Counted from the first letter of the stretch, positions 14,376 through 25,895 are shown. The stretch is DNA of 31,793 bases from Gemmatimonadaceae bacterium (GCA_035559375.1 DATMBI010000150.1:1-31793); one strand, 5' to 3'. Numbers and translations are program-made. Notes: generated by a model not told the origin, from the letters alone.

Positions 14376-15734
14376 TCAGCCGAGTCCCTCATCTGTGACG
14401 ATAGCGCCACCCACAGCGGACGTGTACAACCATTGCATAAGCAAGAAATATGCGGCGCCCATGTAGCTCGAGAACGACGCGTTGAATACGGACGATGTGA
14501 GATACGCGAGGGTCACGCCCGTGGCACAGAACCCGATGCGAGCGCGTTGGCGATCATCGGCACCCATTAGCGCGAACACCCTGCGGAATCCGAAGAAGAG
14601 AGCGAACACAAAGGTGAACGGAAACAACACGGAGTATCCGACAGCGAAGAGGAAGTAGTTATTGTGCGGGACGAGCGCATTGGGATTGTAGGAGGTTGCG
14701 ACTGACGCTGGTCCGAGACCTTCGGGATGGAATCGAATCAGCTCGATTGAGACGCTCCAGGCAGTGGCCATGCGCTCTCGTACGGTCTCCGCCTCCCAAA
14801 AACGAAACGCCTCTGCGAGGCGTCGCAGAGCCAGTGTCTCGGAGTCGAGAAAGAGGGCGGGTACGACCCAAAACAAAGAGAGGAAGAGAGCGAGTAGCCC
14901 CACACCAACGACGAATCGGGCCGGGTTTGCCCGCGCCCCGTGAATCAATGTGACGCCGAGCCAGGTGGATGCCAGAACGATGCCGGACATCATGATCGGT
15001 GTACGGTCTGGGAGGAGTACGTCCACGACCACGAGACTGAGGAGCACCATCCAGGTACCGACGCGCTCTCGGGGAGGAACGAGGTCCCGAAGGACGAATA
15101 GTCCGACCCCCAGGATGTGGACCACAATCTGGTATTCCGCAAACGACGCGAATGTCGCGAACGGCCGGATTAGATTGGCTTGGTAGAGGTTTCTCGCTTC
15201 CCAGGATTCCATTTGCGCCCTGACGTACGCCATATCCCAAGGCGGCAGCGTGAGTTCTTGGGTCAGGAAATGCACGCCCTGGAACAGTGCATACATCTGG
15301 ACCAGGAGGAGCGCTCCGAGGACGGCGTTCGCGGGAAACTGGTGGCCGGCGAAGATGAGAAGGAATACAAAGCCAATGAAGAATTGCTTGACACCGAAGA
15401 TGCTCGCCAGCGGATCCCCGTAAAGTACCCCCAGTAGCGTCACAACGATCAGCGCCCCAGCCGCCCAGATTGCGAGGGGCTGGTCGCGACCCCGCGCCAC
15501 AGCCATGAGTACTCGTACGGCGACCGCCAGCCCCATGAGGCCATAGTAGAGATTCGTGAACAAGGCCAGGCCCAGATAGTACGCCGTGAGGCGATCCAGC
15601 AGCGCGTTGAAGAAGAAGAGCCAGAGAATGGCAAGCAGGAGCCATCTGTGGGCACGCTCGACAGCCGCGCCTGCTGCGGCTCTCTGGGCGGTGGGCCACA
15701 GGGTACCCACCGCGAGGTGGGGTGCGCCCATCAT
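14376..15734 (-). CDS. Putative Wzy/O-antigen ligase-like polymerase (polytopic membrane protein)
   Basis: About 10-11 TM segments, RPFATF, periplasmic R...W...P.GLG...PHNNYF motif typical of Wzy_C/WaaL. ATGA-coupled, and sits among GTs and wzx. Confidence 0.7.
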   Translation of the reverse strand: MMGAPHLAVGTLWPTAQRAAAGAAVERAHRWLLLAILWLFFFNALLDRLTAYYLGLALFTNLYYGLMGLAVAVRVLMAVARGRDQPLAIWAAGALIVVTLLGVLYGDPLASIFGVKQFFIGFVFLLIFAGHQFPANAVLGALLLVQMYALFQGVHFLTQELTLPPWDMAYVRAQMESWEARNLYQANLIRPFATFASFAEYQIVVHILGVGLFVLRDLVPPRERVGTWMVLLSLVVVDVLLPDRTPIMMSGIVLASTWLGVTLIHGARANPARFVVGVGLLALFLSLFWVVPALFLDSETLALRRLAEAFRFWEAETVRERMATAWSVSIELIRFHPEGLGPASVATSYNPNALVPHNNYFLFAVGYSVLFPFTFVFALFFGFRRVFALMGADDRQRARIGFCATGVTLAYLTSSVFNASFSSYMGAAYFLLMQWLYTSAVGGAIVTDEGLG

Positions 15735-19117: not shown

Positions 19118-19546
19118 CTAGGTCCTGGAGCGTCCAGAAAGGTTTTGTTGATAACCGCACTTGCGTCGCGCATTCCGGCGGGTGAAACGCCAGTTAATGC
19201 GAGTCCCGGTCCGGTTGGCTCTGGTATTCCATGCTCGCGTTTCGCGCTGCAGGGATGCCAGATCGCCGATGGGCCGGGTGCCGAGACATTGGCGCGTGAA
19301 CAAGCACAGTTCCAACTCCGCTTGGTTGAGCCACCTCCCGTGCTTCGGTGTGTAGCGCACCTGCAGGCGTCGCCACAGCGCCCGCCCCACCTGACGCCCG
19401 GGATGGTCGACCGGGGACTTCTCACAATGGGTATTGAGATAGTCCATTACGAAATGAATCGTCCGGGCGTCCGGGCAGGCCCACACGACCCGGCGAAGGA
19501 TCCATGCGAAGTGCCCGGCCGAGCGGTCGGAGGTGGGCTCAGCCAC
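19118..19546 (-). pseudogene. IS630 transposase catalytic (DDE_3) region, partial
   Basis: TIHFVMDYLNTH, YTPKHGRWLNQAELE, RQCL, AWN..N.....INWRFT. The first catalytic Asp region is absent, and an in-frame TAG precedes the segment. Confidence 0.88.
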
Positions 19547-20006
19547 GCGCTACCTTTTTCCCCCGCCACGGTTTCAGGTCGTGGGCTTGCAAGAGAATCC
19601 GGATCGTCTCGCGTCCCACCCGGGGGACCAGTTTGCGCTTCACCGCTTCTTGCGCAATCAAGCGCACGGTCCAGCGGGCCCGGCCTCGAGGCGGGGGACT
19701 GCAGACCATGGCGACGATCCGCTGCTTCTCGGCCGGGGCCAACACCTCGGCCGCCCCGGGGCGCGGGCGGTCGTACAACGCCCGCGCCAAGCCGCCGGTG
19801 CGATAGCGATGGGCGATCTTCCGCACGGCCTGGGGCGTCAGCGGCGGCGTCCGCGCCACCTCGGGGGCGCTGGCCCCGCGGTCCAGCTGCAAGAGCGCCA
19901 TGGCCCGGAGCACCACCCGCACCTGCTGCACCCCACCGTGCAGCAGGGCTTCCAACTGCCTCGCGTCCTGCGTCTTCAGTCGGAACGGCAAGGGAGGTCG
20001 TGGCAT
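19539..20006 (-). CDS. IS630 transposase N-terminal HTH part (orfA)
   Basis: LRAMALLQLDRG, LYDRPRPG, VCSPPPRGRARWTVRLIA, VGRETIRILL..HDLKPWR. Ends at a GGGGGAAAAA slippery-type run. Confidence 0.85.
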   Translation of the reverse strand: MPRPPLPFRLKTQDARQLEALLHGGVQQVRVVLRAMALLQLDRGASAPEVARTPPLTPQAVRKIAHRYRTGGLARALYDRPRPGAAEVLAPAEKQRIVAMVCSPPPRGRARWTVRLIAQEAVKRKLVPRVGRETIRILLQAHDLKPWRGKKVARG

Positions 20007-20015
20007 ACCTCTGGT

Positions 20016-20045
20016 AGTATAGGGAACGGCGCACCTGGATGGCAA
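20016..20045 (-). promoter_or_regulatory. Putative sigma70-type promoter inside the IS end
   Basis: TTGCCA (20045-20040), 18 nt spacer, TATACT (20021-20016), 9 nt upstream of the orfA ATG. Confidence 0.55.
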
Positions 20046-20083
20046 CAGGCATTGAGAAATCTTTCAGGCGGTCAGAGATCTAG

Positions 20084-21154
20084 CTAGGGCTCCAAGGACG
20101 CACGACGGCGTCCGACAAAACCACGAAGCTGGCTGCGCGCACCAGCAAGTGCTTCGGCGAACTGTCGATAGTCGGGTCGGCTCCGCAAGTCCTCATTTTC
20201 CAGCGGAGCGATGGCCAAGATCAGGGCCAGCGCAGATATTGCGCCAAAGAAAGCGGCGACGAGAACGTACAGTTTCCGCCGCGGGCCCGCTCGCCGATGT
20301 GGCGGAACGGCGCGGTCGATGATGGTCAGTACTGGTGTGTCTCGAACCTCGGCAATACGGGCGTCCTCATAGGCCTTCGCGAGGCTCGTATACACCTCTT
20401 GCTTCGTCTGCACGATCCGATTCAGGCGTGCGTATTCGAACTCGAGCAGCGGCGATCCCTGAAACTGCCGGTTCGTTTGGAGGAAGCGCTGCACGTCTTG
20501 TTCGGCGGCTTCGAGCTCCACTTCAGCTGTTTCCAGCCGTGACGCAACAAAGCGCGCCTGCTCTCGCGCCTGCGACCGTCGGCGCTCGAGATTAAACTCG
20601 TTCAGTAGTTGAGTGAGATGATTGGCGACGTCCGCCGCCAACCTGGCCGAGCGCTGTCGCACGGTTACGGTGACAATCCCGGTCCTCCCGTCTACCTGGC
20701 TGCTGATCAAGGCGCGAAGTCGTCTAATGCCGTTCGCGACGCGCTCGTTTTCCGATCGGCCCTTCACTCGCAGCAGTTCAAGCAGGGGGCGCCGGGCGTG
20801 CTGGTCGGTGCTTTGGAACTCTGAATTGAGGATCGCGTGCAGAAGTTCGCGACTTTCGAGGACACTCGCAAAAAATTCAGGGCTGACACCGGGCGAGGCA
20901 TTGGCAAGACCCAGTTGTCCCGCGAGCCCCGCGAGGGCTCCGAGACTCGCGGGGAGTCCTTGGGTTGGTTGAGCTTGGGGCGTGAAGGACGTGCTTGCGA
21001 CGTAGGTTGCTGGTACGAAGAGGCTAACGATGGCCCCAACGACCCCGAATGACACTGGGATCGCGAGGGCGAGCCGCCAATGGCGTACGAGCGGTGTGAG
21101 TGCAGCGAAGAACGTCAGTTCGTCGCGACTGGTTCCAGGCGCGGCGTGCATCAT
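20084..21154 (-). CDS. Polysaccharide co-polymerase / chain-length determinant (Wzz/GumC-like, no kinase domain)
   Basis: Two TM helices flanking a coiled coil (Q..F...RL..AE.EL), then VLTIIDRAVPP..RAGPRRKL. Start uncertain (21238, 21205 or 21154). Confidence 0.85.
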   Translation of the reverse strand: MMHAAPGTSRDELTFFAALTPLVRHWRLALAIPVSFGVVGAIVSLFVPATYVASTSFTPQAQPTQGLPASLGALAGLAGQLGLANASPGVSPEFFASVLESRELLHAILNSEFQSTDQHARRPLLELLRVKGRSENERVANGIRRLRALISSQVDGRTGIVTVTVRQRSARLAADVANHLTQLLNEFNLERRRSQAREQARFVASRLETAEVELEAAEQDVQRFLQTNRQFQGSPLLEFEYARLNRIVQTKQEVYTSLAKAYEDARIAEVRDTPVLTIIDRAVPPHRRAGPRRKLYVLVAAFFGAISALALILAIAPLENEDLRSRPDYRQFAEALAGARSQLRGFVGRRRASLEP

Positions 21155-21324
21155 CTCGTCACGGGGCTCAGCCACAGAGCGGGCCTGTCGAACGAGCGTG
21201 TGCATCTTCGATGGCGAGCGCGTCGTAGCGACGAGCACGAATCAATCCCCGACCTGCGCCGGACGCGCCTCCTCGGCCACGCGAAGTGCTGCGATCTGAG
21301 CGTATCGTCAGAACCCTTACTCCA

Positions 21325-21480
21325 TCATGGCAACGTCAGGCGCTCGATTGCCAGGATCATCGTGGTCACGGTCGAAACCACCTGCGCCAACCCACCGAAT
21401 GGGACTGCGAGGTCGATGCGACCGGTATCAAGCCGTTGAGGTACGACGGTCGTGCTCCCCGGCCCCGGGTGATGGTAGGA
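21325..21480 (-). pseudogene. Orphan 3' tail of a second, diverged wza/SLBB gene
   Basis: SYHHPGPGSTTVVPQRLDTGRIDLAVPFGGLAQVVSTVTTMILAIERLTLP* aligns with the last 52 aa of 21708-23960 (35 identities by hand count). Confidence 0.88.
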
Positions 21481-21489
21481 GATCTCGCT

Positions 21490-21662
21490 AGCCGCTGTGC
21501 CCCGACAAACATCTCCGCGTTGAGCGGATTCAGAAACATGACATACGTGTTGCCATCGTCCAGCTTGTCCAGCGCCGTGACCAAGCCGCGGGCGTAACGC
21601 CGGTACCCGGCGCCGCGGGCGAGCTTGGGCACGAGGGAGAAGAGGTCGATTCCAACACGCAT
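21490..21662 (-). pseudogene. 5' stub of a GT4 glycosyltransferase
   Basis: ATG 21662 gives MRVGIDLFSLVPKLARGAGYRRYARGLVTALDKLDDGNTYVMFLNP, a typical GT4 N-terminus, which runs out into the wza-tail sequence after about 57 codons. Confidence 0.75.
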
Positions 21663-21707
21663 GTGTAGGTGGGATGACACCCTGGTGTGTCCGCTTCTGT
21701 GCCACGG

Positions 21708-23960
21708 TCACTGCGCTGCCAAGCGGTCAATCACGAGGATCATCGTGGTTACTGCCGACATCACCTGCGCGATTCCCCCAAACAACACCGCCCAATCAAT
21801 CCCCCGCCCATCTGCGGCTCGTTGAGGGACCACAATTGTGCTGCCCGGTCCAGGGTCAGGGTACGAGCTAAACAAGAGGAACTTGCTCCGCACTCGAGCC
21901 GAGCCGTTTGCATACCGCACGCTGACGCGGCCCTTGTCAGCATCGCTGGCGTAACCTCCGGCATTGGCGATGTAGTAATCAAACGCGCGACCCGCCTCGT
22001 ACCGGACCGTCGTCGGGGAGTTGACAGCCCCGGTCACCCTGACAATCGGGATATACTCGGGGACGTGAAGCGAGTCGCCAGGCTGAAGGATGAGATCGTC
22101 ATCGCTGCCGGGTTCGCTCAACACGCGCTCCAGTTCCACATTGACCCTGCCGGCATCGTCCAGCCGGCGGATAAACCGAGCGCCCCCCGCGTACGCAGTC
22201 GGTAATAACCCCCCGGCGCGCTTCACCAGGTCGCTCAGGCGCTCATCCTTCCGCTCCAGCGCGTATGGTCCGGGGAAGGGAACCTCCCCGGTGATGGTGA
22301 CCGTCCGCTGGAGCTCGAACTCGGGTTGCCCGAATATGGTGACTTGGTCGTAAGGCTCGAGCGGCACTTCAGGCGAACTTCCGGCAGCCGGGAACGAGAC
22401 ACCGGCCGCCCCTTTGTACCTGCCCACGGAGTCGCGCTCGAACAGGTACGACGAGTCGAGGGGGACACGGAACACTCGGGCTAGAGCGCCCTGCGAACGG
22501 TCACTTGGAAGCCGTGCAACCTCCGCTTCTCGCAGGTCAGCGCCGACCAGGGGCCCGCGTGCCACCGTGACCAGATCCCGCAGCGACATGCCTGGCGACC
22601 AGGCGTACTGGCCAGGCTTGCGCACCATCCCACTGACGGTGACGTACAGCGAGCGCTCGGGCGGCAGCACGGAGTCCACCACCACCGAGTCCCCATTCTC
22701 GAGCGTGAGCCCGGGTACGAGTACGGGGAACTCGGCTCGGTGTTCGCCCTCCGCTCGCGGCGCTGAGCTCAGGGGGCCGTCCTGGCGCGGCGCCGCTTTT
22801 CCCTCGGCGAGGGCGAGCGGCACGTCAATGACCGCGCGCGGAGCGGGAGCTGGCTCGCGCGCGGCCGGTGGAAGAATGCGGTGCACCGCGACGCGCGCAA
22901 GTTCCGCGTCGGCCCGGAAGCCCCCCGCCATTCGAACGAGGTCGGCCAATGTCTCGCCCGCGCGGAGCTCGTAGATGGCCGGCCGTGTCACCGCTCCGGT
23001 GACGCTGACGCGGACGCCCCGAATGGGTACGAATACCACGTCGCCCTGCTCCAGCACGACATCGCTCGCCGTGCTGCCGCGCATGAGGTACTCGTAGAGA
23101 TCCAGCGAGGAGAATGCCTTGCCTCCCCGCTCCACACGAACCTCGCGGAAGTTCCCTCGCTCCGTGGGTCCGCCCGCCGCGTACAATGCGTTCAGGACCG
23201 TTGCCACCGAGGCCAGTTGATAGGCCCCCGGCTGCGCGACCTCGCCAACGACGAATACCTGAATCGTGCGCAGCCTCGCGATCGTGATGTCGAAATGCGT
23301 CGTGCCGCGAGGGATGCCGGAGTACACCCGCCCGAGCCGCTGTCGGAGCAAGGCCTTCAGGTCAGCCAGCGTCACGTTGCCCACGTACAGCTGCCCCACC
23401 TGCGGGATGACGATGAACCCTTCGCGCGTCACCTGAAGCTGGTGCACCAGTTCCACTTCTCCCGTAAGCACCAGCACCATTACATCGCCCGGGCCTATGC
23501 GGTATGTGTCCGGCACCGGCCCCGCGAGCAGCGGCTGGAATTGCGTCGTGCGCCCACGGAATACGTCGAGGCCGAACAGTCGCGATGCTGCACGGACCAA
23601 CCCCGGTGGCTGCGCTCCCGTGTCCACCGGAAGCTCCTCCACGCCAGCCGGAACGATCGGCAGCACGCCGAGCAGGTCGAGCGCCTGGAGGACGCCACCG
23701 GTGACCTGCGCTCCGGCCGTGTCCGTTTCCGACAGAAACGGATCAAGCATTGATTCCGCGAGGCCAGCCGCCCGGAGCTGTTGTCTGACCTGGTCCGGCG
23801 TGAGACCGGACTGCCGTATGCGCTGCCGCACGAGGTCCGGCCGGCTCTGAAGCAGCTGCAGGGCTTCCGCTCTCGTCATGCCCGCGGGCAGGGACACCTG
23901 TTGCGCGCTCAACGGCAGCCCAAGCGCGGTGACCAGCAGGAAGCAGGCGACGAATCTCAC
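21708..23960 (-). CDS. Polysaccharide export protein with multiple SLBB domains (Wza/KpsD-like)
   Basis: LFGLDVF, YRIGPGD, GFIVIPQVGQL, VFVVGEVAQPGAY, LYAAGGP, repeated V.V.G.V..PG.Y SLBB units. The signal peptide MRFVACFLLVTALGLPLSA-QQ and the promoter position support GTG 23960 over the ORF-track start at 24080. Confidence 0.9.
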   Translation of the reverse strand: MRFVACFLLVTALGLPLSAQQVSLPAGMTRAEALQLLQSRPDLVRQRIRQSGLTPDQVRQQLRAAGLAESMLDPFLSETDTAGAQVTGGVLQALDLLGVLPIVPAGVEELPVDTGAQPPGLVRAASRLFGLDVFRGRTTQFQPLLAGPVPDTYRIGPGDVMVLVLTGEVELVHQLQVTREGFIVIPQVGQLYVGNVTLADLKALLRQRLGRVYSGIPRGTTHFDITIARLRTIQVFVVGEVAQPGAYQLASVATVLNALYAAGGPTERGNFREVRVERGGKAFSSLDLYEYLMRGSTASDVVLEQGDVVFVPIRGVRVSVTGAVTRPAIYELRAGETLADLVRMAGGFRADAELARVAVHRILPPAAREPAPAPRAVIDVPLALAEGKAAPRQDGPLSSAPRAEGEHRAEFPVLVPGLTLENGDSVVVDSVLPPERSLYVTVSGMVRKPGQYAWSPGMSLRDLVTVARGPLVGADLREAEVARLPSDRSQGALARVFRVPLDSSYLFERDSVGRYKGAAGVSFPAAGSSPEVPLEPYDQVTIFGQPEFELQRTVTITGEVPFPGPYALERKDERLSDLVKRAGGLLPTAYAGGARFIRRLDDAGRVNVELERVLSEPGSDDDLILQPGDSLHVPEYIPIVRVTGAVNSPTTVRYEAGRAFDYYIANAGGYASDADKGRVSVRYANGSARVRSKFLLFSSYPDPGPGSTIVVPQRAADGRGIDWAVLFGGIAQVMSAVTTMILVIDRLAAQ

Positions 23961-23989
23961 CGAATGAATAATCCCACTTGGAATGAGTA

Positions 23990-24017
23990 AATGTACTTTG
24001 CGTTGTAAAGTCGTCAA
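23990..24017 (-). promoter_or_regulatory. Putative sigma70 promoter of the export/biosynthesis operon
   Basis: TTGACG (24017-24012), 16 nt spacer, TACATT (23995-23990), in an AT-rich patch 30 nt upstream of GTG 23960. Confidence 0.55.
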
Positions 24018-24097
24018 CATTGCCAAGCTTTTGGCGGGCATACGTCCCGTGGCGGGGCTGCCCGCGCGCGGAAACGTCACGAGTGACTACTGGTGGG

Positions 24098-24580
24098 TCA
24101 AGGGGCTGAGTCGGTCAGACGCTCCGCAAGCCACGAGCCGGCTGACCCTGCCGCCGAGGCCGCTCCCTGGTTCAACGTCGTGCACAGGGTTGTGCCCGTT
24201 AGGCGAGTCGGTCGCGCACCGGTGATTACGCCACGGTAGTCGCACTCGCTGATCCGGAACTCGATGGACGATTTGCCCACGCGGCCCCTCGGAATGGAAC
24301 CGGACTCCGAACGCGTGCTTGGCCGGCTGAGCTGGCCGGAGCAGCTCGTGGTACGTATGAAGCTACCCACGAACGTCTCGAAGTCCTGAACGAGGCTGAG
24401 GGTACCGAGTGTGTTGCAGGTCACCCGGCCCTGATCGAGCGTCGTGGTCTCGCTGTAGGTCCACGAGCCATCAACGTCCGGCAGATCGTCCGGCTCGATG
24501 CCACCGCCGCACGCTCCCCCTCCGAATACCAAAGCGACGGCAAACACTACGTTGGGTGATTTTCGCAATCTGGCCGACAT
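24098..24580 (-). CDS. Hypothetical lipoprotein (~160 aa)
   Basis: AAGGAGG SD 8 nt before ATG 24580; basic N-terminus, hydrophobic stretch and lipobox-like FGGGA-C, followed by a beta-rich body with Cys residues. Confidence 0.7.
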   Translation of the reverse strand: MSARLRKSPNVVFAVALVFGGGACGGGIEPDDLPDVDGSWTYSETTTLDQGRVTCNTLGTLSLVQDFETFVGSFIRTTSCSGQLSRPSTRSESGSIPRGRVGKSSIEFRISECDYRGVITGARPTRLTGTTLCTTLNQGAASAAGSAGSWLAERLTDSAP

Positions 24581-24695
24581 GCCCCGAGCCTCCTTCCCAA
24601 CGCACGCCTTGCCGCGGCGGAGGGAGACCGAGCCTGGGTGCACCCTAACGCTCACGCCTCGTCCGGAAAGCCGCAAGGGGTCGCGTCCCTGGAGC

Positions 24696-25895
24696 ATGGG
24701 GCCTTATGTTCCCGCCCACGAACCAAGCGGAGATCTCGGTCCCATAGCTCGAACGTCAGGCCGGCAGGGCGCGCGCGAGCGCGTTGTCCTCGTTGGCGCA
24801 CCCCGCAAGGGGGGCGACGACGACCGGCATGCCGCCGATCACCTGGACGAGCTCGCTCGCCTGGCCGACACCGCCGGAGCGACGGTGGCCGCCACGGTCA
24901 TCCAGCGCGTCGTGGCGCCAACGCCCGGCTACTACATCGGCCGCGGAAAGGTGCTCGAACTGCAACAGGTCGCGCGGCAACACGGTGCCACCCTCGCGGT
25001 GTTCGACGAGGACCTCTCCCCTGCGCAGGGCCGCAATCTGGAGCGGGCGCTGGGGCTCCGTGTGATGGATCGTTCGGAACTGATCCTCGACATCTTCGCG
25101 ACGCGCGCCCGCAGCAAGGAAGCCCGGATGCAGGTGGAACTCGCGCAGCTGGAGTATCTCCTCCCGCGCCTCGCCCGCATGTGGGTGCACCTCTCGCGCA
25201 TCCGCGGCGGCATCGGCCTGCGCGGGCCGGGTGAGACGCAGCTCGAGACGGATCGCCGCATGATCCGGCGCAGGATCGCCACGCTGAAACGCAAGCTGGA
25301 GCACGTAACCCGGCACAGGGAAACGATCAGGGGCGGGAGGCAACACATCCCCACGGCGGCCCTCGTGGGGTACACAAACGCCGGCAAGTCCAGCCTGCTC
25401 AAGGCTCTCACGGGCGCGGACACGTTCATCGAGGATCGCCTGTTCGCCACGCTCGACACGCTGACGCGAGAGCTGGCCATTCCCTCCGCATTCCGGGATC
25501 GCGGCCCCGCCAGGCGGAGGATTCGGCTGGTGGACACGGTAGGATTCATCCGCAAGCTACCGCACCATTTGGTGGCGAGCTTCCGTGCCACGCTGGAGGA
25601 GGCCCGAGACGCCGATCTGTTGCTCCACGTCATTGACGCGTCTCACCCGCAGTGGGAGCAGCAGGTGGACGTCGTGAGCGACGTGCTCGCGGAGGCCGGC
25701 TGCCTGGAGAAGCCCGTGATCCACGTGTTCAACAAGATGGACCGCGTCGCGAGCCCCAGCGACTTCCGCGCTCGCGTGCGGGAGCGGTACGGGCCAGCGG
25801 TGTGCGTGTCGGCTGCTCTGGGTGAGATCGGTGATCTTGCCGGTGTTCTGTTGCGCTTCGACGAGGCGCAACGCCCGGGGCTCGTGCCGTCTTAG
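24696..25895 (+). CDS. hflX: Ribosome-splitting GTPase HflX
   Basis: LDELARLADTAG, LILDIFATRA..KEARMQVELAQLEY, GLRGPGETQLETDRR, G1 GYTNAGKS, LFATLD, G3 DTVG, G4 NKMD. Start uncertain (ATG 24696 or later). Confidence 0.97.
   Translation: MGPYVPAHEPSGDLGPIARTSGRQGARERVVLVGAPRKGGDDDRHAADHLDELARLADTAGATVAATVIQRVVAPTPGYYIGRGKVLELQQVARQHGATLAVFDEDLSPAQGRNLERALGLRVMDRSELILDIFATRARSKEARMQVELAQLEYLLPRLARMWVHLSRIRGGIGLRGPGETQLETDRRMIRRRIATLKRKLEHVTRHRETIRGGRQHIPTAALVGYTNAGKSSLLKALTGADTFIEDRLFATLDTLTRELAIPSAFRDRGPARRRIRLVDTVGFIRKLPHHLVASFRATLEEARDADLLLHVIDASHPQWEQQVDVVSDVLAEAGCLEKPVIHVFNKMDRVASPSDFRARVRERYGPAVCVSAALGEIGDLAGVLLRFDEAQRPGLVPS

What the first reader, a model, noticed from the sequence alone, without database searches (positions are those of the whole stretch)
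21325..21866. Recombination scar: wza, GT4 stub, then the tail of a different wza, then wzz
Seen: 21325-21480 repeats the last 52 codons of wza (21708-21866) at 35/52 aa identity, with many third-position differences (CCG/CCT, GGG/GGA, ACG/ACA, GTC/GTG) and one codon-sized indel. Between them lies a 57-codon GT4 start that breaks at about 21490, at a CTAG. Inference: this is not a local duplication but the remnant of a second functional wza from another cluster. A deletion or cassette swap fused cluster A (wza-GT4...) to cluster B (...wza'-wzz-...), so the polymer of B is now exported through the Wza of A. The CTAG suggests, but does not show, IS630 involvement.
Basis: partly seen in the sequence, partly recalled or inferred. 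Interest (0 to 1): 0.62.

Follow-up and report, generated by a model that had tools for sequence, protein, structure and literature searches.

The report
Gene-fusion scar in a sugar-coat cluster
In an uncultured soil-type bacterium, a past DNA break joined the start of a sugar-transferase gene to the last 50 codons of a second polysaccharide-exporter gene, probably at the tip of a jumping gene; this is an ordinary kind of scar in surface-sugar clusters.

Summary
All genes are on the minus strand. After an intact wza (21708-24080) come 45 nt, then the first 58-61 codons of a GT4 glycosyltransferase (from ATG 21662). These are fused to the last ~51 codons of a second wza (21480-21325). That tail keeps an 86-nt spacing to wzz (21238-20084).

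The two wza tails share 35 of 48 residues. Synonymous sites are saturated (pS 0.75) and non-synonymous sites are not (pN 0.18; Fisher p 2e-10). So they diverged as working genes, and this is not a decaying local duplicate. Each tail is the other's nearest relative among about 100 sampled loci. wza directly followed by wzz is the usual order in this clade. No relative shows wza followed by this GT4.

New here: an internally deleted IS630-family element lies 1.4 kb downstream (19121-20080), flanked by TA in CTAG. The 13 nt at the scar junction match 12 of 13 the sequence that spans this element's tip and target (empirical p about 0.0015). The genome encodes Ku.

Best reading: a real illegitimate join that fused two wza-led clusters, or swapped a cassette, possibly at an IS630 end. 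This is a known kind of event. Interest is modest.

The parts
21708..24080 (-). wza_A: intact outer-membrane polysaccharide export (OPX) gene, 790 aa, with its own C-terminal tail (21708-21866)
   Evidence: Pfam Poly_export, SLBB x5 and SLBB_2 x4. PDB Wza 2J58 and 2W8I match residues 192-391. Relatives align to residue 783-790.
21663..21707 (-). 45-nt spacer between the wza_A stop and the GT4 start codon
   Evidence: Read directly from the sequence.
21489..21662 (-). GT4 glycosyltransferase 5' stub. Homology is clear for 58 codons and possible up to codon 61 (21480). About 85% of the gene is missing.
   Evidence: phmmer against 1.84 billion representatives: P0126 E 4e-18, P0127-P0136. Alignment A1. 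P0126 carries the GT4 Pfam domains. P0127 is named GT4 in NCBI.
21479..21491 (.). Junction 13-mer GAGATCTCGCTAG (plus strand). Bases 21481-21488 cannot be assigned to either parent gene. It contains the CTAG at 21488-21491.
   Evidence: 12/13 identical to 20075-20087, the IS tip plus TA plus the flank. Only 29 of 20000 random genome windows do as well against the two IS boundaries.
21325..21480 (-). wza_B tail: the last 51 codons plus the stop of a second, anciently diverged wza. No start codon and no upstream part remain.
   Evidence: Homology starts at the Ser-Tyr pair that is also present in wza_A and in L033.
21239..21324 (-). 86-nt spacer between the wza_B stop and the longest wzz ORF, like the short wza-wzz spacers of relatives
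20084..21238 (-). wzz-like polysaccharide co-polymerase (GNVR domain, no kinase domain), intact
   Evidence: Pfam GNVR 34 bits; Wzz 21.7 bits, below the cut-off. 305 homologues of similar length, the closest 60% identical.
19119..20082 (-). IS630-family element: a 960-bp body at 19121-20080 between duplicated TA in CTAG. The HTH ORF runs 20006->19542 and the DDE part 19546->19121. About 240 bp are missing internally, so it is defective.
   Evidence: Pfam DDE_3, HTH_32 and HTH_29. NCBIfam transpos_IS630 positions 2-118 and 208-297 of 299. Eight related copies of ~1.2 kb in other genomes share the ends and CTAG flanks.
20075..20087 (.). 13-mer GAGATCTAGCTAG: the IS 5' tip (GATCTC in gene orientation), the duplicated TA, and the flank with the wzz stop. 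It is a direct repeat of the scar junction, 1404 bp away.

Best explanation
This is a genuine scar of illegitimate (non-homologous) recombination in an exopolysaccharide/capsule cluster of an uncultured Gemmatimonadota bacterium. Two wza-led gene sets once existed: wza_A followed by a GT4 gene, and wza_B followed by wzz. They lay either in tandem in one chromosome or in two related genomes. One join connected GT4 codon ~58-61 to wza_B codon ~-51. Everything between was lost or replaced. What remains is one intact exporter gene (wza_A), a dead 5' GT4 stub, a dead wza_B tail with its native spacer, and the intact wzz and downstream Wzx/Wzy-type genes.

Shown: the anatomy; that both fragments are parts of real gene families; and that the two wza genes diverged under purifying selection. 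Inferred: the join was made by end-joining or short-homology repair (the genome encodes Ku). With about even odds, one of the joined ends lay at the tip of a copy of the IS630-family element whose defective relic now sits 1.4 kb downstream. Also inferred: Wza_A now serves the downstream cluster together with a Wzz that evolved beside Wza_B.
For: Tail homology has E 1.3e-15 within the genome. pS is 0.75 (saturated) against pN 0.18, Fisher p 2e-10. The stub is 64% identical to the first 61 residues of a GT4 family and lacks the next conserved block. Only 8-11 nt at the join cannot be assigned to a parent, so the joint is clean. Tails A and B are each other's closest relatives: 73% identity against at most 57% and 44% to any other tail in 100 loci. 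wza directly followed by wzz is the clade's usual order. Tandem or multiple wza genes in one locus occur in relatives L043, L053, G032 and G034. There is an IS630 relic with TA/CTAG flanks. The junction matches its tip and target 12/13, p about 0.0015. Ku is present at C304 with 171 bits. The longest exact repeat between the two tails is 14 nt and the copies differ at a third of their bases, so an assembler collapse is not expected.
Against: No parental form was found in 40 relatives, 80 metagenome loci, 3 GT4 loci or the protein databases; that is, no wza_A followed by a full GT4 and no full wza_B followed by wzz. Canonical IS630/Tc1-type excision leaves 2 nt of each tip (ISY100, PMC2170065), not 6. 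The expected TA reads GA at the scar. The residues Leu-Ala-Arg-Ser encoded across the junction could also be native GT4, since P0126 has Phe-Ile-Arg-Thr there.
Confidence: 0.8

Rival explanations
1. The same scar, but made without any IS630 involvement. It would be a plain short-homology deletion between tandem clusters, or homology-facilitated illegitimate recombination after DNA uptake. The junction string would be native GT4 and wza_B sequence, with a few shared bases acting as microhomology.
For: Both reading frames stay plausible across the 8-11 unassigned bases: GT4 Leu-Ala-Arg-Ser against Phe-Ile-Arg-Thr in P0126, and wza Ser-Tyr shared with A and L033. The 6-nt tip does not fit the 2-nt stagger known for ISY100 (PMC2170065). 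No IS sits at the junction.
Against: The 12/13 match to the IS tip and target boundary was reached by only 29 of 20000 random windows. It also reproduces this copy's own tip variant GATCTC rather than the family consensus GGTCTC.
Confidence: 0.4
2. Assembly chimera: the contig joins two co-occurring strains, or mis-joins two loci, at about 21480-21490.
For: The source is a fragmented metagenome-assembled genome: 397 contigs, 79% complete. Reads could not be inspected.
Against: A graph assembler needs a shared k-mer at a false join. GT4 and wza are unrelated there, and the only similarity to other DNA is an interrupted 13-mer. No other contig carries the missing GT4 part or a wza lacking this tail. 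The truncated wza of C158 overlaps tail B by 27 residues with a different sequence. The tail keeps a natural spacing to wzz.
Confidence: 0.07
3. Local tandem duplication of the wza 3' end, followed by neutral decay of one copy.
For: The two tails are each other's closest relatives.
Against: Neutral decay would change all codon positions alike. Here 31/48 third positions are changed against 17/96 first and second positions, pS 0.75 against pN 0.18, p 2e-10. A duplication also does not explain the GT4 stub between the copies.
Confidence: 0.03
4. The stub-plus-tail region is kept because it works. Either it encodes a small protein, or it carries the promoter or translation signals of wzz. The small protein could be the 98-aa GT4-frame ORF that gene callers predict, or a peptide carrying the Wza C-terminal hydrophobic helix.
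For: Both fragments are still free of stops and frameshifts. A 98-aa ORF was called in the public record (P0125). Deletions reaching further would have hit the wzz start.
Against: No homologue of the chimeric ORF exists among 1.84 billion representatives beyond GT4 N-termini. No promoter-like site was found in 21240-21700. Tail B shows 5 lineage-specific changes against 1 in tail A relative to L033, including a Pro in the hydrophobic helix (my count). That hints at relaxed constraint but is not significant.
Confidence: 0.05

Closest known systems
Gene remnants and IS-mediated rearrangements in capsule and O-antigen loci (e.g. Klebsiella K-loci, PMC5359410; PMC4453057)
   Same: A variable sugar-synthesis region next to conserved export genes. 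Reassortment by recombination near wza/wzc-type genes. IS elements inside the locus and dead gene pieces at joints.
   Different: This case is in an uncultured Gemmatimonadota genome. The remnant is the exporter gene itself, and the joint is non-homologous, not a crossover in shared genes.
Homology-facilitated illegitimate recombination and Ku/LigD end joining in bacteria (my knowledge; the term appears in PMC6382021)
   Same: A one-sided or no-homology join with at most a few shared bases. It leaves a truncated foreign or neighbouring gene next to a truncated resident gene.
   Different: No parental sequences are available, so microhomology, direction and anchor cannot be shown. Only the presence of Ku was tested.
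IS630 / ISY100 (Tc1-mariner-IS630 superfamily): TA duplication in CTAG, cut-and-paste (PMC2577343 Table 1; PMC2170065)
   Same: The element at 19121-20080 has IS630-type HTH and DDE_3 parts, imperfect terminal inverted repeats and TA duplication in CTAG, as do eight related copies.
   Different: The window's copy lacks ~240 bp with the first catalytic part. The scar keeps 6 nt of the tip, not the 2 nt expected from ISY100-type cleavage.
E. coli Wza-Wzc export machine (PDB 2J58; PMC12881504)
   Same: Poly_export plus SLBB architecture, and a neighbouring PCP-family gene.
   Different: Wza_A is twice as long (790 aa, extra SLBB repeats). The partner lacks a kinase domain. The C-terminal tail is not alignable to E. 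coli Wza by sequence.

Membership tests
OPX / Wza polysaccharide export proteins (wza_A and the tail remnant) | Poly_export (PES) domain followed by SLBB domains | tested here: met
   wza_A: PF02563 59 bits, PF10531 161 bits, PF22461 125 bits. The remnant has none of these, only the C-terminal 51 residues.
OPX / Wza polysaccharide export proteins (wza_A and the tail remnant) | C-terminal membrane-spanning helix, as in E. coli Wza domain 4 | tested here: inconclusive
   Both tails end in a ~22-residue hydrophobic stretch. PDB Wza chains align only to residues 192-391. No structure was predicted.
GT4 glycosyltransferases (stub) | Homology to proteins with Glyco_transf_4 N-domain and Glycos_transf_1 C-domain | tested here: met
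   The stub is 64% identical to residues 1-61 of P0126. P0126 has PF13439 and PF00534. The stub alone reaches no Pfam model, as expected for 15% of a gene.
GT4 glycosyltransferases (stub) | Complete catalytic protein | tested here: not met
   Homology ends at residue 58-61 of about 385. The conserved VPLPP..WPFRL block and both Rossmann domains are absent.
PCP / Wzz family (downstream gene) | Wzz N-terminal domain and GNVR C-terminal motif region | tested here: met
   GNVR scores 34 bits, over the cut-off. Wzz scores 21.7 bits, below its 25.5 cut-off. Homologues carry both domains.
IS630 family insertion sequence | Transposase with HTH N-domain and DDE_3 catalytic domain | tested here: inconclusive
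   HTH_32 at 57.7 bits and DDE_3 at 38.5 bits pass the Pfam cut-offs. NF033545 matches positions 2-118 and 208-297 only and stays below its 100-bit cut-off. Relative to the G008 copy, ~240 bp are missing.
IS630 family insertion sequence | Terminal inverted repeats and TA duplication within CTAG | tested here: met
   The window copy and all eight related copies are bounded by CTAG on both sides where the contig allows. The consensus ends GGTCTCTGACCG and CGGTCAGAGACC are inverted repeats. The target rule is from PMC2577343 Table 1.
Tc1/mariner/IS630 excision footprint (for the scar junction) | TA, 2-3 nt of each transposon tip, TA | tested here: not met
   In gene orientation the scar reads C-GA-GATCTC-C-TA-C. 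That is 6 nt of the 5' tip, at most 1 nt of the 3' tip, and GA in place of the first TA. ISY100 leaves 2 nt (PMC2170065).
Recombination scar (pseudogene remnants at an illegitimate joint) | Two truncated genes of unrelated families abutting, with a full paralogue showing selection-shaped divergence | tested here: met
Recombination scar (pseudogene remnants at an illegitimate joint) | Joint supported by reads, and a parental arrangement seen in relatives | not testable with these tools
No parental form was seen.

The most novel reading that the evidence does not exclude
The scar would record a complete IS630 event in a bacterium. A copy sitting in the GT4 gene was cut at its end. The broken flank, still carrying six tip bases, was joined by Ku-dependent end joining to a distant break inside wza_B, which fused two polysaccharide clusters. 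The element itself re-inserted 1.4 kb away at the CTAG after wzz (a local hop) and later lost 240 bp. This would be natural evidence that transposase breaks plus NHEJ remodel surface-polysaccharide loci in a non-model phylum.
Probability: 0.15. Interest if true: 0.5.

Novelty: new member of a known kind. Interest (0 to 1): 0.3.

Why it matters
The scar shows, in a barely studied phylum, how surface-polysaccharide clusters are rebuilt. An exporter gene from one set was coupled to the chain-length and assembly genes of another by a non-homologous join, with an IS630 element close by. For annotation, the 98-aa 'hypothetical protein' called here is a chimera of two dead gene pieces. The cluster has only one working exporter gene. 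The cluster also holds an unusual sialic-type sugar pathway that was flagged elsewhere in this window. Its mosaic history therefore bears on which genes really belong together.

Tried and rejected
- I looked in the same genome for the source of tail B or the stub. There is none. The second wza, on C158, is only 43-48% identical in the tail and overlaps tail B with a different sequence.
- Word-indexed protein searches with the stub and with tail B (lengths 'longer') gave no hit. This is weak evidence only.
- The ESM Atlas look-up of the stub was uninformative.
- wza followed by GT4 was not seen in relatives: not in 20 GTDB loci, 80 metagenome loci or the 3 closest GT4 loci. In L125 the GT4 lies two genes after wzz.
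- There is no GC shift across the joint, with 0.61-0.63 on both sides.
- No inverted-repeat or IS remnant lies at the joint beyond the 13-mer.
- CTAG alone is weak evidence. The window has 30 copies, about one per kb.
- The composite-transposon idea (a cryptic end in wza_B plus the far IS end) was rejected, because no GT4 3' part follows the IS. The HAD gene starts 11 nt after the far-side CTAG.
- A canonical excision footprint was rejected because the tip is too long.

Full report
**Setting.** The window is the whole 31.8-kb contig C150 of a 2.26-Mb, 397-contig, 79%-complete metagenome-assembled genome. The closest proteins are named Gemmatimonadota, Gemmatimonadales or Longimicrobiales in public records.

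The genes of interest lie on the minus strand. In order they are:
- an intact 790-aa Wza-type exporter at 24080->21708, with Poly_export plus nine SLBB-type stretches and PDB Wza matches
- the region under study
- a wzz-like co-polymerase at 21238->20084, with a GNVR domain
- an IS630-family element
- a HAD hydrolase, a KpsS-like protein, methyltransferases, two GT4 genes and a Wzx flippase

**Observation.** The minus-strand reading of 21480->21325 repeats the C-terminus of Wza. tblastn against the whole assembly gives 71% identity over 49 residues, E 1.3e-15. The codon alignment has 48 pairs and one codon indel, with 35 identical residues and 96/144 identical bases.

The changes sit overwhelmingly at third positions: 31/48 against 17/96. 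By Nei-Gojobori counting, pS is 0.75, which is saturated, and pN is 0.18 (Fisher p 2e-10). The two tails diverged while both encoded working proteins.

Against the outgroup tail of L033, tail B has 5 private changes and tail A has 1 (my count). B's changes include a Pro in the hydrophobic helix and the one-codon deletion. This hints at some relaxed evolution since the event but is not significant.

**The stub.** The ORF from ATG 21662 was searched against 1.84 billion representatives. It hits only N-termini of ~380-aa proteins: P0126 at E 4e-18 and others. P0126 carries Glyco_transf_4 and Glycos_transf_1, and P0127 is named GT4 in NCBI.

In alignment A1 the stub is 64% identical to P0126 over 61 residues. 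The next, strongly conserved block is missing. HMMER's extension to residue 83 rests on an out-of-frame reading of the wza tail, and I discount it.

GT4 homology is safe to codon 58 (21489). wza_B homology is safe from the Ser-Tyr codons (21480), which wza_A and L033 share. Only 8 bases, 21481-21488, are unassigned, so this is a clean, non-homologous joint.

**Relatives.** I compared 20 loci from 40 related GTDB genomes and 80 metagenome loci found with Wza_A.
- Tail A's best match outside the window is 57% (L033) and tail B's is 44%, against 73% to each other. So wza_B came from the same little-sampled Wza lineage. It was either an old paralogue or the allele of a related species.
- wzz directly after wza is the usual order. 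It starts within 300 nt of the wza stop in 25 of 70 informative loci, including all eight closest Wzz relatives. The 86-nt spacing of tail B to wzz therefore looks native.
- Several relatives carry two or three wza genes in one locus: L043, L053, G032 and G034. A deletion between tandem clusters is thus as plausible as a cassette swap by gene transfer.
- The stub's GT4 family was never seen next to a wza. In L125 it lies two genes after wzz.
- No parental arrangement was found anywhere.

**IS630.** The gap between wzz and the HAD gene holds an element with an IS630-type HTH part and a DDE_3 part. It matches NCBIfam transpos_IS630 at positions 2-118 and 208-297 of 299.

Eight related ~1.2-kb copies in other Gemmatimonadota genomes define its ends. 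All are bounded by CTAG and have inverted-repeat tips with the consensus GGTCTCTGACCG. This fits the known TA-in-CTAG target of IS630 (PMC2577343, Table 1).

The window's copy has a 960-bp body at 19121-20080. It lacks ~240 bp with the first catalytic region and is the only IS630-type match in the assembly. All copies split the transposase after an A-run into two frames, so that split itself is normal for this subfamily.

**The junction string.** On the plus strand, 21479-21491 reads GAGATCTCGCTAG and 20075-20087 reads GAGATCTAGCTAG. The second string is exactly the IS 5' tip (6 nt), the duplicated TA and the flank with the wzz stop.

I compared random 31-nt windows of the genome with both IS boundaries (+-20 nt, both strands). 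Only 29 of 20000 reached 12/13. The scar also reproduces this copy's own tip variant, with A at position 2, rather than the family consensus. The two strings are direct repeats 1404 bp apart that enclose tail B and wzz.

I read this as moderate evidence that one of the joined ends lay at an IS630 tip, with three caveats:
- ISY100 leaves only 2 nt of its tip on the flank (PMC2170065).
- The expected TA reads GA.
- The four flank bases CTAG also match, which the tip model does not predict. A short templated insertion copied from the nearby IS boundary would explain them.

The genome encodes Ku, so end joining of broken ends is available to this organism.

**Artefact?** Reads could not be examined. 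Several points argue against a mis-join:
- A false join needs a shared k-mer, and there is none.
- The two tails differ at a third of their bases and share at most 14 exact bases.
- No other contig holds the missing halves.

I put this rival at about 7%.

**Consequence (inference).** wza_A is the only intact exporter gene in the cluster. It must work with a Wzz that evolved beside Wza_B. The tails' 73% identity suggests the two exporters were similar enough for this. The 98-aa ORF predicted here (P0125) is a chimera of the GT4 stub and an out-of-frame wza tail.

**Verdict.** The phenomenon itself, gene remnants and IS elements at recombination joints of polysaccharide loci, is well known (PMC5359410). 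This is a new instance in a new phylum, of modest interest.

Noticed in passing
window 19121-20080: Defective IS630-family element between wzz and the HAD gene, inserted at the second CTAG of CTAGCTAG right after the wzz stop. Removing it leaves a 16-nt wzz-HAD spacer. A promoter-like site (TTGCCA-18-TATACT) lies inside it, just upstream of the transposase ATG.
   Followed up: yes
L114-L121 (G008, G332, G081, G329, G401, G127, G399, G120) and window 19539-19560: All copies of this IS630 subfamily end the 155-aa HTH ORF just after an A-run (GGGGAAAAAA) and continue in another frame. This looks like a conserved programmed frameshift site.
   Followed up: partly
L043:5993-12133; L053; G034:C7:125991-145734; G032:C2:653433-672688: Relatives carry two or three full-length wza genes in tandem or within 17 kb. 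In L043 they are separated by an FAD-dependent reductase-like gene.
   Followed up: partly
G000:C158:3455-6157: A second wza paralogue in the same genome, 49% identical, runs off the end of its contig inside its C-terminal tail.
   Followed up: partly
G000:C304:5704-6201: Ku homologue (PF02735, 171 bits), so the organism probably has NHEJ. LigD was not searched.
   Followed up: no
window 14376-15734 and 24098-24697 (minus strand): A 452-aa ORF and a 199-aa ORF have no Pfam family. The first sits where a Wzy polymerase would be expected. The second overlaps the long hflX ORF start and may not be real.
   Followed up: no
L033, L043 versus L047, L093, L065: Loci with the closest Wza_A relatives (59-61%) carry distant Wzz (37-38%). 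Loci with the closest Wzz (45-49%) carry distant Wza (33-39%). Exporter and co-polymerase genes appear to reassort often in this clade.
   Followed up: partly
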